Part shown: positions 4,013 to 18,134 of the stretch, one piece after another | Layout of the letters: each line of letters starts with the position of its first letter | Position numbering within the stretch: the first letter of the stretch is position 1 | DNA from: a virus | Lineage: Duplodnaviria > Heunggongvirae > Uroviricota > Caudoviricetes | Length of the DNA stretch: 18,250 nucleotides | Strand: one strand, 5' to 3' | IMG/VR virus record: IMGVR_UViG_2690315922_000010 | Notes under the pieces: generated by a model | Database searches by the model: none | What the model was told of the DNA's origin: nothing | The model's input: only the letters and a program-made list of their open reading frames with translations | Program-made: the position numbers and the translations under genes

Positions 4013-5404
4013 TCAAAAGAAACGCTCCATCTTACTGCTGTCAGTTCGTTTGTTGCTGTATCTGCGCGGCTGGGGCTGCTGCATTGGGGTGGAAAGAATC
4101 TGTGCGCTTTCCTGATCCACAGGCAGAAAATGTCCGTTATAAAAACGCCGGTAAATCGTCCCCAGAGAACCGTTACGTTGTTTCGTGATATTGATTTCTG
4201 CTATGCCCCGGGCCTGCGTATCCGGGTTGTACACTTCATCCCTGTAAAGCATCAGAATGATGTCTGCATCCGCCTCTATTTCTCCGGAATTTTTCAGGTC
4301 TGAGTTCATGGGGCGTTTATTGGGTCTGGACTCCACACCACGGGAGAGCTGGCTCAGCGCAATTAAGGGAAAACCACCGGATTTTGCCAGGCCTTTAAGC
4401 CCCTTTGAGATTTCACCCACGGCAAGGTCATGACGCCCCGTGGTTCGGGTTTTTATCAGCCCGAGATAATCAACCACCACCAGCGCCGTTTCCGGATATT
4501 TAATCAGGTGGTGTTTCGTTGTTGCGCATATCTCGTCAATGGTCAGGTTCGCCTGGTCCACCATCCAGATATTGCGCCCGGTCATCCGCCCCACCCCTTG
4601 TGAGAAACGCGCCCAGTCTTCGTCTTCAAAGTGAGCGACAGATTTCAGACGTGATACCGGCATTCCTCCAGCCGCAGATACCATGCGCTCACCAATCTGG
4701 ATGTTCGCCATTTCCATTGTGAACAGAAGAACACCATGCCCCTGCTCAGTCACCTTGTCGATGATATCCAGCGCCAGTTCAGTTTTGCCCATTGACGGAC
4801 GAGCCGCAATAAATACCAGGTCGCCGGGCTCCATGCCGCCTGTTTTTGCGTCCAGTTCATCAATACCGGTCATCAACGTCCTGGATTTCTCCAGCCCCTG
4901 ATTCCGGCATTCAACACGCTCAACCACTTCCGGAAGCACATCATCAATATGTACCGGCTGAATAACGCCCTTTTCCGTCGACAATGAGGCCATCATGTTC
5001 TGCGCATCCTTCAGGGCATCTTCAGCTGCTTCACAGGTATGCGCATCACGTAATTTCTGCAACGCCTCATTCAGCGTCTTTTCTGCATCACGCAGTGCGG
5101 CATTGCGACGCAACGCTGCAACATAGTGCTCCAGTGAAGACTTCACCCAGGTTTTACGCCCGGTATCAGTAATCACCGGAGCAAGTTCCGGCATCTCATT
5201 GCACAGCAGCACAGGATCAATCACACCTGAAACACGAGCCTGTCTGCAGATGCCTGTGTAGATATCCCGATACGCTCGTACAGAAAAAACGTCCGCAGGT
5301 AGTGTGGCCAGAATATCCATCACTTCAGGATCTGCCCCACGCAGAAAGAACGCGCCAATGACAGCGCCTTCCAGGTCATCGTTACGCCAGACTGGTGTTG
5401 TCAT
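4013..5404 (-). CDS. DnaB-family replicative DNA helicase, about 463 aa
   Basis: Walker A AARPSMGKTELAL and other DnaB C-terminal RecA-like motifs (LVFIAARPSMGKT, VVVDYLGLIK, LSQLSRGVESRPNKRP). Start set at ATG 5404, which overlaps the stop of the upstream loader gene (ATGA), rather than the track's GTG at 5512. Confidence 0.9.
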   Translation of the reverse strand: MTTPVWRNDDLEGAVIGAFFLRGADPEVMDILATLPADVFSVRAYRDIYTGICRQARVSGVIDPVLLCNEMPELAPVITDTGRKTWVKSSLEHYVAALRRNAALRDAEKTLNEALQKLRDAHTCEAAEDALKDAQNMMASLSTEKGVIQPVHIDDVLPEVVERVECRNQGLEKSRTLMTGIDELDAKTGGMEPGDLVFIAARPSMGKTELALDIIDKVTEQGHGVLLFTMEMANIQIGERMVSAAGGMPVSRLKSVAHFEDEDWARFSQGVGRMTGRNIWMVDQANLTIDEICATTKHHLIKYPETALVVVDYLGLIKTRTTGRHDLAVGEISKGLKGLAKSGGFPLIALSQLSRGVESRPNKRPMNSDLKNSGEIEADADIILMLYRDEVYNPDTQARGIAEINITKQRNGSLGTIYRRFYNGHFLPVDQESAQILSTPMQQPQPRRYSNKRTDSSKMERFF

Positions 5405-14813: not shown

Positions 14814-16127
14814 ATGGATAAAGTCAAATATCCAACAGGCGTCGAAAACCACGGCGGCACATTACGCATCTGGTTTAATTTTAAAGGTAAACGTGTCAGG
14901 GAAAATCTTGGTGTCCCTGACACTGCCAAGAACAGGAAGATCGCCGGGGAACTACGGACATCGGTATGTTTTGCCATCCGCACAGGAAGCTTTGATTATG
15001 CTGCACAGTTCCCTGACTCCCCTAACCTTCAGGCTTTTGGGGTAAGTAAAAAAGAAATTACGGTGAAAGAACTTGAAGAAAAATGGCTGGATCTGAAACG
15101 AATGGAAATCTCTGCAAATGCATTCAATCGCTATGAATCCGTTGCAAGAACGATGGTTCCGAAAATTGGAGGCAGCAGACTGGTGTCATCGGTAACTAAA
15201 GAGGAATTGCTGTATATCAGGAAAGATTTGCTGACCGGGTATCAGAATCCAACGAAAAACAAAGCAGCAGCAAAAGGACGGAGCGTCGTTACTGTAAATT
15301 ATTACATGACGACAATCGCTGGAATGTTTCAGTTTGCTGCAGATCACGGTTACTTAGAAGCAAATCCCTTCCAGGGAATTAAGCCTCTTAAAAGAGCCAG
15401 GGCAGAGCCAGATCCGCTAACTCGTGACGAATTTATTCGCCTGATAGATGCTTGCCGACATCAGCAGACGAAAAACCTGTGGTCATTGGCTGTGTACACA
15501 GGAATGCGTCACGGTGAACTGGTCTCCCTGGCCTGGGAAGATATCGATCTGAAAGCAGGAACTATTACTATCAGGCGCAATTATACGAAACTCGGTGAGT
15601 TCACTCTACCTAAAACTGAAGCAAGTACAAACAGGGTTGTGCATCTTATCCAGCCCGCTATCAGTGTCCTGAAAAATCAGGCTGAAATGACAAGACTGGG
15701 TAAGCAGCACCACATCAAGGTTCAACTACGTGAATATGGGCGTTCAGTGAATCATGAATGTACTTTCGTATTTAACCCCCAGGTGGTTAGAAAAAGCAAA
15801 CAGGTCGGTTTTATCTACAAGGTAGATTCTATTGGCGACTCATGGGAAACAGCCATTAAGCGTGCGGGCATCAGGCACCGGAAAGCATACCAGTCACGAC
15901 ACACTTATGCGTGCTGGTCGTTATCTGCCGGAGCAAATCCAAGCTTCATTGCCAGCCAGATGGGCCATGCAAGTGCCCAGATGGTGTTCAATGTATACGG
16001 AGCATGGATGACTGACAGTAATGCAGAACAGATCGCAATGCTGAATCAGAAGCTGGCAGATTATGTCCCAATGATGCCCCATAGTCACCAAAATGGCACA
16101 AAAGGCTTATTAAAATCAGTAAGTTAA
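14814..16127 (+). CDS. int: Tyrosine integrase (lambda Int-like, IntR/IntE-type N-terminal arm-binding domain), 437 aa
   Basis: GGAGG ribosome-binding site. N-terminus PTGVENHGGTLRIWFNFKGKRVRE...GSFDYAAQFPDSP is typical of E. coli lambdoid integrases. C-terminal catalytic region has conserved Arg, His-x-x-Arg (SRHTYA) and Tyr. Last gene before the host junction. Confidence 0.9.
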   Translation: MDKVKYPTGVENHGGTLRIWFNFKGKRVRENLGVPDTAKNRKIAGELRTSVCFAIRTGSFDYAAQFPDSPNLQAFGVSKKEITVKELEEKWLDLKRMEISANAFNRYESVARTMVPKIGGSRLVSSVTKEELLYIRKDLLTGYQNPTKNKAAAKGRSVVTVNYYMTTIAGMFQFAADHGYLEANPFQGIKPLKRARAEPDPLTRDEFIRLIDACRHQQTKNLWSLAVYTGMRHGELVSLAWEDIDLKAGTITIRRNYTKLGEFTLPKTEASTNRVVHLIQPAISVLKNQAEMTRLGKQHHIKVQLREYGRSVNHECTFVFNPQVVRKSKQVGFIYKVDSIGDSWETAIKRAGIRHRKAYQSRHTYACWSLSAGANPSFIASQMGHASAQMVFNVYGAWMTDSNAEQIAMLNQKLADYVPMMPHSHQNGTKGLLKSVS

Positions 16128-16136
16128 TCCTTAATA

Positions 16137-16555
16137 CCCGTCATGTTAACTGCGTAGAGGGCAACACTACTCTGTATGCACTGCCGAAAGCGGAAGTTGT
16201 GCTGCGCTGGCGTGAGCAAACCAGCGACGATTTCCGTTTTTGTTTTAAGTTCCCGGCAACTATTTCGCATCAGGCTGCATTACGTCATTGCGACGATTTA
16301 GTGACAGAGTTTTTCACCCGTATGTCGCCGCTGGCACCACGCATTGGGCAATTCTGGCTGCAATTACCCGCTACCTTCGGTCCACGGGATCTGCCTGCGC
16401 TTTGGCATTTTCTCGATACTCTACCTGGCGAGTTTACCTACGGTGTGGAAGTTCGCCATCCGCTATTTTTTGCCAAAGGGGAAGAAGAACAAACGCTTAA
16501 TCGCGGCTTGCATCAACGTGGCGTTAATAGGGTAATACTAATCAGACACGTTTAA
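16137..16555 (+). pseudogene. yecE: Internal fragment of host DUF72 gene (yecE-like), disrupted at both ends
   Basis: The open frame reads ...NCVEGNTTLYALPKAEVVLRWREQTSDDFRFCFKFPATISHQ...NRGLHQRGVNRVIL with no ATG start (the track uses a GTG at 16199). My recollection of E. coli YecE matches from about residue 30 to about 165. Upstream it runs into the int stop region and downstream it diverges into a stop. Confidence 0.6.
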
Positions 16556-16605
16556 ATACACCATCCAAAGCGATACAATCACACTATTAGTTTTTTATGG
16601 TGTAT
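16556..16605. repeat. Perfect 9-bp inverted repeat upstream of the serine recombinase gene (candidate att or regulatory site)
   Basis: ATACACCAT (16556-16564) and ATGGTGTAT (16597-16605), flanking 32 bp of AT-rich DNA. Lies at the point where the yecE-like frame is lost. Confidence 0.5.
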
Positions 16606-16610
16606 AAACT

Positions 16611-18134
16611 ATGAAACGTGCAATCAGTTACATCCGATTCAGTTCTGAGAAGCAATCCCGAGGTGATTCACTACGCCGACAATCGAAGTTGGTCACTGAC
16701 TGGCTTAAAGCTCGTCCTGAGTATCATCTAGATGAATCTCTTACCTTCCGTGATTTGGGGAAAAGTGCTTTTAGCGGTAAGCACTTGAAAGGTGGCTTAG
16801 GCGACTTCTTAACCGCTATTGAGAAAGGGCTTGTAAGAGCTGGTGATACGCTCTTGATAGAGTCTCTTGACCGTCTGTCACGGCAAGATGTAGACCGAGC
16901 AAGTGAACTACTCAGAAACATCCTTCGCTCTGGTGTCGATGTGGTCACATTATCCGATAATGAACACTACACAAAGGAATCTCTTAAAGACCCGTTAGCC
17001 TTGATTAAGTCAATCCTGATTATGCAACGAGCGCATGAGGAAAGTTTGAGGAAGTCTGAGCGTATACAGGCTGCATGGGATGCAAAGAAAGAAGCCGCTA
17101 AAGCTGGTATCAAGATTTCTAAGCGTTGCCCTGCATGGCTTAAGCTTAATAATGACCGTAAAAGTTTCTCTGTAATCCCTGAGAAGGTAGCGACGGTAAA
17201 GCGATGCTTCCAGCTACGGTTAGAGGGTAAGTCTATCTTGGAAATTGTCAGAACTCTTAATAGTGAGGGACATCAGACGCTTAACCAGTACAAAGCGGGT
17301 AAATTTAGTCAGACTTCTGTGCAAGACCTTTTGAAGAATCGCTCTGTAATTGGTTATTTCACCCCCAAAGGCTGTGAAGAAATTTCAAACTATTACCCCT
17401 CTATCATCCCTGAGACTGATTTCTACAAAGTCCAGCAACTATCATATCCTCGTTACGGTAGAAAACCTGCTTCAGATAAACCATTGAGTGTGAATCTTTT
17501 CAAGGGTGTTATCCGTTGTTCTGAATGTGGTCATGCTCTGATTATCACAGGCTTTAGCGATACAAGGAACGGGATATATCGCTGCCCTCTTCGTAATGAA
17601 AACCGTTGCAGTGCTAAGGGTCTGTCACGTAAGCAAACTGATGGAACATTACTTGCTTTGCTCTCTCGTCTTGACCGATTTGAGAATGGTACAACGAATG
17701 CCATTGATACACTGAAGCTACACCGTGAACACATTTCAAACAATATTGAGAAGCTGGTACAACTCTCACTTGAAGTCGAAGACCTGACCGCTATTACCAG
17801 CAAGTTAAAACAGTTAAAGGGGGAGTTATCACAGGTTGATGCTGATATTGAGAAGGAGGCACAACGCCTTAAATCTATTGACGTGGGTTGTTTGTCTGAT
17901 TGTGACTTGAGTACAAAGGCGGGAAGGATTGAAGCACAACTGATTATTCGTAGTGCTGTTAAAGAAGTTGTTTTAAACACTGCTAAACGTCGCTGTAGAG
18001 TAACTTTTCACAATGGCAAGGTGATTGACCTGTCGATAACAGAAAACCCCGCTCAGGACATTACAGAGGCTGAAAAGTCGCTTACTGAAATTGCTGAGAA
18101 GGGTCTGTTAGATGTTGACGCCTTCCAACTGTAG
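16611..18134 (+). CDS. Large serine recombinase (serine integrase), 507 aa
   Basis: N-terminal resolvase-type catalytic domain (AISYIRFSSEKQSRGDSLRRQ with Ser nucleophile, LIESLDRLSR). Recombinase domain, Cys-rich zinc-ribbon (CSECGH...YRCPLRNENRC) and C-terminal coiled coil. Confidence 0.9.
   Translation: MKRAISYIRFSSEKQSRGDSLRRQSKLVTDWLKARPEYHLDESLTFRDLGKSAFSGKHLKGGLGDFLTAIEKGLVRAGDTLLIESLDRLSRQDVDRASELLRNILRSGVDVVTLSDNEHYTKESLKDPLALIKSILIMQRAHEESLRKSERIQAAWDAKKEAAKAGIKISKRCPAWLKLNNDRKSFSVIPEKVATVKRCFQLRLEGKSILEIVRTLNSEGHQTLNQYKAGKFSQTSVQDLLKNRSVIGYFTPKGCEEISNYYPSIIPETDFYKVQQLSYPRYGRKPASDKPLSVNLFKGVIRCSECGHALIITGFSDTRNGIYRCPLRNENRCSAKGLSRKQTDGTLLALLSRLDRFENGTTNAIDTLKLHREHISNNIEKLVQLSLEVEDLTAITSKLKQLKGELSQVDADIEKEAQRLKSIDVGCLSDCDLSTKAGRIEAQLIIRSAVKEVVLNTAKRRCRVTFHNGKVIDLSITENPAQDITEAEKSLTEIAEKGLLDVDAFQL

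What the first reader, a model, noticed from the sequence alone, without database searches (positions are those of the whole stretch)
16556..16610. Perfect 9-bp inverted repeat at the serine-recombinase element boundary
ATACACCAT...ATGGTGTAT flanks an AT-rich 32-bp core directly upstream of the recombinase start, which has no obvious Shine-Dalgarno, and just past the point where host coding sequence ends. It could be part of attL for the serine integrase or an autoregulatory site.
Basis: seen in the sequence. Interest (0 to 1): 0.4.

Follow-up and report, generated by a model that had tools for sequence, protein, structure and literature searches.

The report
Integrase attL half-site plus ribosome site
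The 9-bp inverted repeat is real, but it is probably a lineage-specific overlap of two ordinary signals: its left arm lies in the element-side half of the serine integrase's attachment site (attL), its right arm is the integrase gene's ribosome-binding region, and the host/element crossover lies 17 bp to its left.

Summary
The repeat exists exactly as described: ATACACCAT at 16556-16564 and ATGGTGTAT at 16597-16605, with a 32-nt, 31% GC spacer and the ATG at 16611.

It is not the recombination site. Occupied and empty yecE loci, both ends of the same element in other contigs, and one contig carrying the joined attP were compared. They place the crossover at CT 16538-16539, inside TAATACT 16533-16539, which attL and attR share. 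The element-side half-site (P') runs about 16540-16564.

The left arm belongs to the distal motif TAAATACACC (16553-16562). That motif's true inverted partner, GTGTATTTA or GTGCATATA, sits at the other end of the element, symmetric about the crossover. This is the layout of known large-serine-integrase attP sites.

The right arm holds the weak Shine-Dalgarno GGTG (16599-16602), which is GAGGTG in E. coli relatives.

Across 17 leader variants only ACC/GGT stays complementary. There is no covariation, and complementarity beats chance only in this Escherichia albertii variant.

A conserved promoter-like site (TTTAAA-17-TACAAT, 16551-16579) overlaps the motif, so autoregulation by integrase binding is plausible but only inferred.

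Verdict: an ordinary, previously undescribed member of a known kind. Low interest.

The parts
16128..16539 (+). Internal fragment of host yecE (DUF72). It is bounded on the left by a lambdoid prophage and on the right by the serine-integrase element. Its last ~20 bp form the B arm of attL.
   Evidence: Pfam DUF72, profile positions 38-138. Alignment with intact E. coli yecE ends at 16533-16539.
16533..16539 (.). TAATACT, the block shared by attL and attR of this element type. The crossover dinucleotide is CT 16538-16539, assigned by homology with the E. coli variant, where the only shared bases are TT.
   Evidence: attL and attR of L007/L008, which carry an identical integrase and identical attL. 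E. coli DEC5B attL/attR/attB overlap is TT only. The dyad axis of the attP motifs falls on the same dinucleotide.
16540..16564 (.). P' half-site of attL, the element-derived half of attP: AATCAGACACGTTTAAATACACCAT.
   Evidence: Symmetric positions between the P and P' arms number 15-17 of 25 in three attP variants. AGACACGTTTAAATACAC is invariant in every locus that was retrieved without using that motif as the search key.
16553..16562 (.). Distal motif TAAATACACC at +14 to +23 of P'. It sits where the zinc-ribbon-domain ('ZD') motif sits in known attP sites. Its inverted partner lies at the other end of the element.
   Evidence: GTGTATTTA-N13-TT-N13-TAAATACAC in the observed attP of L033 and in the reconstructed DEC5B attP. 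GTGCATATA (7/9) in the E. albertii-type attR. The LI integrase ZD motif occupies positions 16-24 of a 25-bp half-site (PMC3783163).
16556..16564 (.). Left arm of the reported inverted repeat, ATACACCAT. It lies inside the P' half-site.
16551..16579 (+). Promoter-like site for the integrase gene: -35 TTTAAA (16551-16556), 17-nt spacer, -10 TACAAT (16574-16579). The -35 overlaps the distal att motif. The predicted transcription start is near 16586.
   Evidence: It is the only + strand hit upstream of int, in attL context and in attP context. The block AAAGCGATACAATC (16567-16580) lies beyond a 25-bp half-site, is identical in sequence and position in every yecE-type locus found by protein, and is followed by a hypervariable leader.
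16581..16596 (+). Variable leader. It differs in sequence and in length among relatives, including 20-25-nt insertions.
16597..16605 (.). Right arm of the reported inverted repeat, ATGGTGTAT. It contains the weak Shine-Dalgarno GGTG (16599-16602), 8 nt before the ATG.
   Evidence: Relatives have GAGGTG or ATGGTG 4-8 nt before the ATG. The bases after GGTG vary by indels (GGTGTATAAAC, GGTGGTAAAC, GGTGAAC).
16611..18134 (+). Large serine recombinase (integrase), 507 aa, N-terminus MKRAISYIRFSS.
   Evidence: Pfam Resolvase + Recombinase + Zn_ribbon_recom. Weak match to the A118/LI integrase C-terminal domain, 4KIS. A 99% identical protein is named as Escherichia albertii.

Best explanation
The region 16519-16610 is attL of an ~11-kb integrative element, followed by the expression signals of its large serine integrase.

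Integration into yecE occurred by a 2-bp crossover at 16538-16539 (CT here, TT in E. coli variants). To the right lies the ~25-bp P' half-site. Its distal motif TAAATACACC is, by analogy with LI/A118 integrase, the contact for the integrase zinc-ribbon domain. The motif's real inverted partner is in the P arm, which after integration sits ~11 kb away in attR.

The right arm is the integrase ribosome-binding region: a weak SD, GGTG, plus spacer.

The 9-bp perfect complementarity arose in the E. albertii lineage. A TA-containing indel after GGTG extended a trivial CACC/GGTG match. The repeat probably has no function as a unit.

Between the arms lies a conserved sigma-70-like promoter whose -35 overlaps the att motif. 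Integrase bound at attL or attP would then be expected to dampen its own transcription.

Shown: the junction, the dyad, the motif, non-conservation of the repeat, and the existence of an attP junction in nature.

Inferred: the zinc-ribbon-domain contact, promoter activity, autoregulation, and that the repeat has no function of its own.
For: 1. Junction. E. coli attB (GGGTGATT[TT]AGACAGCC), attL and attR of strain DEC5B share only TT. In L007/L008 (integrase and attL identical to the window) attL and attR share TAATACT.

2. The attP junction is seen directly in metagenome contig L033: GTGTATTTA-N13-TT-N13-TAAATACAC, with gene order Dam-invertase-attP-int-Dit-TMP. This order is circularly permuted relative to the integrated form.

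3. Dyad symmetry is 15-17 of 25 positions, with a perfect or 7/9 block at +14 to +22. The ZD motif of LI integrase sits in the same place.

4. The protein is a large serine recombinase.

5. In 17 leader variants the right arm keeps only (GA/AT)GGTG before the ATG. Left and right variants occur in nearly all combinations. Formal pair counting shows no covariation above shuffles (273 of 500 shuffles reach the observed score), and the repeat's ends are unpaired in 11-16 of 17 variants.

6. Motif-to-RBS duplex strength beats chance only in the window variant (p = 0.002). It is borderline in L071 (p about 0.05) and 0.12-0.84 in eight other variants and lineages. The eleventh lineage tested, L072, gave conflicting nulls (p < 0.001 against shuffled motifs, 0.23 against locus 16-mers) for a pairing that does not involve a Shine-Dalgarno.

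7. The only promoter-like site upstream of int, in attL and in attP context, is TTTAAA-17-TACAAT. A terminator follows the upstream invertase gene in attP context.
Against: - The window's own attR is not in the window. It was taken from other contigs with an identical integrase and attL.
- In E. albertii the attL/attR overlap is 7 bp, so CT is assigned by homology and dyad symmetry, not uniquely.
- Locally the 9-bp repeat is improbable (p about 0.002-0.02), so a lineage-specific function is not excluded.
- Whole-leader folding energies are lower than shuffles in several variants (p < 0.002 to 0.10). This leaves room for some RNA structure.
- The promoter is a 9/12 consensus match only, and no transcription data are available.
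- ZD-like motifs shifted 5 bp inward could not be clearly recognised in attB (4-5 of 9 on the B arm, 1 of 9 on B').
- Invariance of the two conserved blocks among the 33 metagenome and 9 viral loci is built in by the search pattern. The independent evidence is the 14 distinct protein-retrieved loci (9 distinct sequence variants).
Confidence: 0.7

Rival explanations
1. The two arms form an RNA hairpin in transcripts that enter from upstream, either yecD-yecE read-through in the lysogen or transcription across attP in the circle. The hairpin hides the SD, and with the outer ACGUUU/AAACGU stem the start codon too, so integrase is translated only from its own short-leader mRNA.
For: RNAfold pairs the SD with the left-arm region at p 0.81-1.0 in all 17 variants. 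MFE z-scores are -2.8 (window) and -4.3 (L001 type). Native leaders fold better than shuffled-upstream controls (p < 0.002 to 0.10). C/U changes in the left arm lie opposite G.
Against: With shuffled upstream sequence the SD is still paired at 0.8 or more in 28-46% of cases. There is no covariation above shuffles. Motif-to-RBS duplexes are not better than chance in eight of the eleven variants and lineages tested. Variants are related, not independent. The predicted promoter would start the mRNA downstream of the left arm. No Rfam family matches.
Confidence: 0.12
2. The repeat is a DNA operator. A dimeric regulator (a repressor or directionality factor), or a second integrase contact, binds both arms. 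The right arm read backwards is TTTATACAC, 7 of 9 to the distal motif. Binding would bracket the -10 element and control int transcription.
For: The arms flank the predicted -10. The right arm resembles the att motif as closely as the genuine E. albertii P arm does (7/9). The local chance estimate is 0.2-2%.
Against: The repeat is absent or reduced to 3-6 bp in all E. coli, Citrobacter and other variants of the same element, which keep the same promoter block. The leader between the -10 and the SD varies in length by up to ~25 nt, which a fixed two-arm operator would not tolerate. No candidate regulator was identified.
Confidence: 0.08
3. The repeat is itself the attachment-site dyad, with strand exchange inside the AT-rich 32-bp spacer.
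For: It lies at the element boundary next to the integrase gene, and its sequence is AT-rich.
Against: Sequence identical to the element continues 17 bp to the left of the repeat in every occupied site. Empty sites diverge at 16539/16540, not inside the spacer. The observed attP junction joins P-arm DNA at that same point. The spacer is hypervariable among relatives.
Confidence: 0.02

Closest known systems
attP/attL sites of large serine integrases, best defined for Listeria phage A118/LI integrase (structure 4KIS; PMC3783163); also phiC31 and Bxb1
   Same: The integrase gene lies next to attP. The site is an imperfect ~50-bp dyad around a non-palindromic 2-bp crossover. A 9-10-bp distal motif sits at about positions 15-24 of each half-site, where the zinc-ribbon domain binds. 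Only the crossover dinucleotide needs to be shared between attP and attB. The protein has Resolvase + Recombinase + zinc-ribbon domains.
   Different: Protein similarity to A118/LI integrase is marginal (E about 1e-3 over 75 residues). Sequences and target (yecE) differ. No biochemical data exist. attB motifs shifted 5 bp inward were not clearly recognisable. No directionality factor was identified.
Tn3 / gamma-delta resolvase res site (a small serine recombinase that represses its own promoter by binding its recombination site; from my own knowledge of that system)
   Same: A recombinase-binding sequence overlaps the promoter of the recombinase gene, which suggests autoregulation.
   Different: In that system repression is demonstrated and uses three dimer-binding subsites. 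Here the promoter is only a consensus match and binding is inferred. This is a large serine integrase with a single half-site over the -35.
YbcK-type large serine recombinases of lambdoid coliphages and the DLP12 prophage
   Same: They are the nearest homologues in deposited phage genomes (35% identity over the full length).
   Different: They lie in the nin region of lambdoid phages, not at a prophage end. They are too distant to share att sites.
SD-sequestering leader hairpins (translational repression by an upstream anti-SD sequence)
   Same: In this variant CACCAU upstream is complementary to AUGGUG at the RBS, with a predicted stem of about -12 kcal/mol.
   Different: There is no covariation. 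The predicted transcription start lies between the arms. Complementarity in relatives is at chance level.

Membership tests
Large-serine-integrase attachment site (attL/attP) | An adjacent gene encodes a large serine recombinase (catalytic domain + recombinase domain + zinc-ribbon domain). | tested here: met
   Pfam PF00239, PF07508 and PF13408 in the 507-aa ORF 16611-18134. Weak match to the A118/LI integrase C-terminal domain.
Large-serine-integrase attachment site (attL/attP) | Occupied and empty sites differ by a precise insertion. attL, attR and attB share as little as a 2-bp crossover sequence, with no long target duplication. | tested here: met
   E. coli DEC5B attL/attR versus empty yecE: the overlap is TT only. 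E. albertii-type attL/attR share TAATACT.
Large-serine-integrase attachment site (attL/attP) | attP is an imperfect inverted repeat of ~50 bp centred on the crossover, with a conserved distal motif at about positions 16-24 of each half-site. | tested here: met
   GTGTATTTA-N13-TT-N13-TAAATACAC in the observed attP of L033. 15-17 of 25 positions are symmetric in three variants. Geometry as in PMC3783163.
Large-serine-integrase attachment site (attL/attP) | The central dinucleotide is non-palindromic and sets orientation. | tested here: met
   TT (E. coli types) or CT (E. albertii type, by homology and dyad axis). A more distant integrase lineage sits in yecE in the opposite orientation, with host homology ending at the same two bases read as AA; its other junction was not examined.
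Large-serine-integrase attachment site (attL/attP) | attB carries the same distal motif shifted ~5 bp towards the centre. | tested here: inconclusive
   By eye, using the sequences: the B arm at +9 to +17 matches TAAATACAC at 4/9 (E. coli) or 5/9 (E. albertii), and B' matches at 1/9.
Large-serine-integrase attachment site (attL/attP) | Integrase-dependent attP x attB recombination, and excision that needs a directionality factor. | not testable with these tools
   Indirect evidence only. One metagenome contig carries the attP junction (L033), and the site is empty in most E. coli genomes.
SD-sequestering regulatory RNA hairpin | Base pairing between the two arms is conserved through compensatory changes among relatives. 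| tested here: not met
   The count of structure pairs on 17 variants gave a covariation score of 0.047 against 0.044 in shuffles (273/500). The end pairs are broken in 11-16 of 17 variants.
SD-sequestering regulatory RNA hairpin | Both arms lie in the same transcript. | not testable with these tools
   The only promoter-like site would start transcription near 16586, between the arms. No transcript data are available.
Recombination site that doubles as the operator of the recombinase gene (res-like autoregulation) | An active promoter overlaps the recombinase-binding sequence. | tested here: inconclusive
   A consensus match of 9/12 whose -35 lies inside the distal att motif. The -10 block has the same sequence and position in every yecE-type locus retrieved by protein. 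Activity and repression were not tested.

The most novel reading that the evidence does not exclude
The integrase promoter is built into the P' half-site, so integrase bound to attL or attP represses its own synthesis. In the E. albertii lineage the newly gained inverted copy of the distal motif over the RBS (TTTATACAC, 7/9) adds a second layer of control. That layer would act either as an extra integrase contact or as an SD-masking hairpin in read-through transcripts. To my knowledge, att-site-embedded autoregulation has not been established for a large serine integrase.
Probability: 0.2. Interest if true: 0.35.

Novelty: new member of a known kind. Interest (0 to 1): 0.17.

Why it matters
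The work gives base-level att sites (attB, attP, attL, attR and the crossover dinucleotide) for an uncharacterised enterobacterial large serine integrase that targets yecE. This could be useful as a genome-engineering part and for annotating prophage boundaries in E. albertii and E. coli.

It also shows that a striking perfect inverted repeat at an element boundary need not be the recombination site. The real dyad partner can sit at the far end of the element.

The possible overlap of the int promoter with the att half-site is a testable, modestly interesting regulatory idea.

Tried and rejected
1. Conserved RNA hairpin. At first sight the L001-type variant seemed to show compensatory changes (ACUACCU/GAGGUGGU), and sister elements seemed to repeat the motif-RBS complementarity. 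Null models removed this. Duplex strength is at chance in eight of the eleven variants and lineages tested. The SD pairs in 28-46% of shuffled controls. There is no covariation.

2. Rfam scan of 16350-16750 at E <= 1: nothing.

3. Species-representative genomes (search for related loci): only 2 loci, both of a sister lineage at another site.

4. Deposited phage genomes: no homologue above 36% identity. The best hits (YbcK type) are not prophage-end integrases.

5. Literature searches for yecE with serine recombinase or serine integrase, and for the assembly accession: nothing specific.

6. Promoter on the P-arm side reading across attP: one weak hit, below shuffle expectation, in L007, and none in L033.

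7. ZD motif shifted 5 bp inward in attB: not convincingly found.

8. Empty yecE of E. albertii itself could not be fetched. attB for this species is reconstructed from attL and attR.

Full report
**Observation**

The window reads ...GGGTAATACTAATCAGACACGTTTAAATACACCATCCAAAGCGATACAATCACACTATTAGTTTTTTATGGTGTATAAACTATGAAACGT....
- ATACACCAT occupies 16556-16564 and its perfect reverse complement ATGGTGTAT occupies 16597-16605.
- The 32 nt between them are 31% GC.
- The next ORF, 16611-18134 (507 aa), is a large serine recombinase with Resolvase, Recombinase and Zn_ribbon_recom domains. It has a marginal match to the A118/LI integrase C-terminal domain.
- Upstream are a yecE (DUF72) fragment and a tyrosine integrase, 14814-16127.

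On chance, 1.9% of local dinucleotide shuffles contain a perfect 9-bp inverted repeat. The whole window has 7 such repeats against 5.5 +/- 3.1 expected. The repeat is real and locally unusual, but not exceptional for an 18-kb scan.

**Source and relatives**

The exact integrase protein is encoded on BBVO01000033.1 (18,250 nt, which is this window) and on eight other contigs. A 99% identical protein is named as Escherichia albertii.

E. coli carries 84-91% identical versions of the element at the same place in yecE. At least 191 of 5,426 complete genomes have a match covering 80% or more of the query. The site is empty in most genomes.

**Where the junction is**

In E. coli O55:H7 strain DEC5B the element is ~13 kb. 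The three sites read as follows.
- Empty yecE: GGGTGATT[TT]AGACAGCC.
- attL: GGGTGATT[TT]CATCAGACACGTTTAAATACACC.
- attR: GGTGTATTTAGACCTTGCTAATC[TT]AGACAGCC.

Only TT is common to all three, so TT is the crossover dinucleotide.

Two metagenome contigs (L007, L008) carry an integrase and attL identical to the window's, plus the whole ~11-kb element. Their attR is ...AGTGCATATAGACCTTGATAATACT|GGACAGCCGCC. attL and attR share TAATACT, which is window 16533-16539. Spacing to the conserved flanks is the same as in E. coli, which puts the crossover at CT 16538-16539.

The junction is therefore 17 bp to the left of the reported repeat, not inside it.

**The real dyad**

Reconstructed attP sites are imperfect inverted repeats about that dinucleotide: 17/25, 17/25 and 15/25 symmetric positions. 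The block at +14 to +22/23 is perfect or 7/9: TAAATACAC(C) on the P' side and GTGTATTTA or GTGCATATA on the P side.

One metagenome contig, L033 (11,473 nt), contains the joined attP itself: GTGTATTTA-N13-TT-N13-TAAATACAC. Its gene order is Dam-invertase-attP-int-Dit-TMP, circularly permuted relative to the integrated form. The predicted attP therefore exists in nature, as an excised or episomal copy or as a tandem copy.

The geometry matches the LI/A118 integrase-attP structure. There a 9-bp zinc-ribbon-domain motif occupies positions 16-24 of a 25-bp half-site (PMC3783163).

Its functional inverted partner lies at the far end of the element.

**The right arm**

Seventeen distinct leader variants were collected from viral and metagenome contigs and from E. 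coli genomes. The scans used a pattern that fixes AGACACGTTTAAATACAC and AAA-N-CGATACAAT. The invariance of those two blocks is therefore informative only for the loci found by protein or by whole-gene similarity: L001, L002, L007-L009, L015-L023 and L071. In all of those loci both blocks are present, unchanged except for one G/A position.

Everything between the -10-like block and the SD varies, including 20-25-nt insertions. The stretch before the ATG reads ATGGTGTATAAACT, GAGGTGGTAAACA, ATGGTGGTAAAGA, GAGGTGAACA or GGTGAGGTGAACA. The constant feature is (GA/AT)GGTG, 4-8 nt before the ATG. That is a Shine-Dalgarno sequence, weak in the window and good in most E. coli variants.

The 9-bp repeat is unique to the E. 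albertii variant. The DEC5B type keeps 6 bp (CACCAT/ATGGTG). The others keep only ACC/GGT.

**Is there a conserved hairpin?**

Early folds were suggestive.
- The SD paired with the left-arm region in all 17 variants.
- z-scores were -2.8 (window) and -4.3 (L001 type).
- Sister elements (63-67% identical integrases, inserted in an MFS transporter gene next to an lpxL-like gene) also looked complementary.

Controls did not support this.
- Duplex energy between the distal motif and the RBS region beats shuffled motifs and random locus 16-mers only in the window (p = 0.002). It is borderline in L071 (about 0.05) and 0.12-0.84 in eight other variants and lineages. L072 gave conflicting nulls (below 0.001 and 0.23) for a pairing that involves no SD.
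- With shuffled upstream sequence the SD is still paired at 0.8 or more in 28-46% of cases.
- Left and right variants occur in almost all combinations.
- Pair counting gives no covariation above shuffles (273/500), and the end pairs break in 11-16 of 17 variants.
- The invariant outer 6-bp pairing ACGTTT (16548-16553) with AAACGT (16614-19) is explained by the att half-site on one side and codons 2-3 (Lys-Arg) on the other.
- Rfam has no match.

Whole-leader MFEs remain somewhat lower than shuffles (p < 0.002 to 0.10). A minor structural role cannot be excluded.

**Promoter**

The only + strand sigma-70-like site upstream of int is TTTAAA (16551-16556), 17 nt, TACAAT (16574-16579). This holds in attL context and in attP context.
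- The -35 lies inside the distal att motif.
- The -10 block lies beyond a 25-bp half-site and keeps the same sequence and position in every yecE-type locus found by protein.
- The sequence after the -10 block is hypervariable, which is the pattern expected of a promoter followed by a 5'UTR.
- In attP context a terminator follows the upstream invertase gene. This argues that int has its own promoter.

If the promoter is real, transcription starts near 16586, between the two arms. The left arm would then be absent from the main int mRNA, and integrase bound to P' would sit on the -35.

This is inference from consensus and conservation, by analogy with resolvase/res autoregulation, which I cite from my own knowledge.

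**Conclusion**

The repeat is a composite. The left arm is part of the attL P' half-site, and this is well supported. The right arm is the RBS, also well supported. The perfect 9-bp match is a lineage-specific extension with no demonstrated function, and this part is a judgement.

It is wrong about the core and the junction.

The element's att sites have not been described in the literature I could search. This is an ordinary new member of the large-serine-integrase att-site class.

Noticed in passing
window 14814-16150: yecE is hit twice. A lambdoid prophage ends with xis-int (tyrosine integrase with Arm-DNA-bind_2, 14814-16127). It joins yecE near 16136-16150, about nt 75-90 of the gene. Only a ~400-bp yecE fragment is left between the two mobile elements. 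The same tandem arrangement occurs in some E. coli (e.g. JKHS016) and in Citrobacter (L071).
   Followed up: partly
L072-L074 and L076, positions ~1100-1200: A more distant large-serine-integrase lineage (46-52% identity) sits in yecE in the opposite orientation. In L076 host homology ends at the same two bases (...GGCTGTCTAA|GGATAATGCC; AA is the reverse complement of TT). The other junction of these elements was not examined. Its P' arm has a related motif, TTATGATACAC. These genes have no recognisable SD before the called ATG.
   Followed up: partly
L067-L070, L005, L006 (upstream of position 1201 / 3001 / 2528): Sister integrases (63-67% identity), with the same Dit-like and TMP neighbours, integrate into an MFS transporter gene next to an lpxL-like acyltransferase gene. 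Their P' arm keeps a similar distal motif (TCTAAATACACCC, CCTAAACACATC or CTTAATATACCCC), but only ~25-45 nt separate it from the start codon. They lack the AAAGCGATACAATC block.
   Followed up: partly
L033 1-11473 (ERZ1090866 NODE-760): This metagenome contig carries the attP junction and nearly the whole element in circularly permuted order. It suggests an excised, replicating or tandem form. One contig end is Nextera adapter sequence (CTGTCTCTTATACACATCT), so circularity could not be checked through a terminal overlap.
   Followed up: partly
L007 9940-20920: The ~11-kb element encodes the integrase, a Dit-like baseplate protein, a 687-aa tape-measure protein, a replication-initiator-like protein, a Dam-type methyltransferase and a small DNA invertase. 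No capsid, terminase or lysis genes were recognisable. It looks like a satellite-like element or a heavily reduced prophage, and it is conserved across E. coli, E. albertii and Citrobacter.
   Followed up: partly
window 16597-16614: The right arm starts a five-codon mini-ORF (ATG GTG TAT AAA CTA TGA, MVYKL*). Its stop codon overlaps the integrase start (ATGA). It has no SD of its own and is absent from the E. coli variants.
   Followed up: no
L036 ~1766-1790; L053 (minus strand) ~4603-4627: Two leader variants carry a ~22-nt insertion, GGTTGGTACAAGCCCAACTGC, between the -10-like block and the SD. It is a small GTTGG/CCAAC hairpin. A longer relative of it lies near the P arm of the E. albertii-type element (L007 ~20826-20860).
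   Followed up: no
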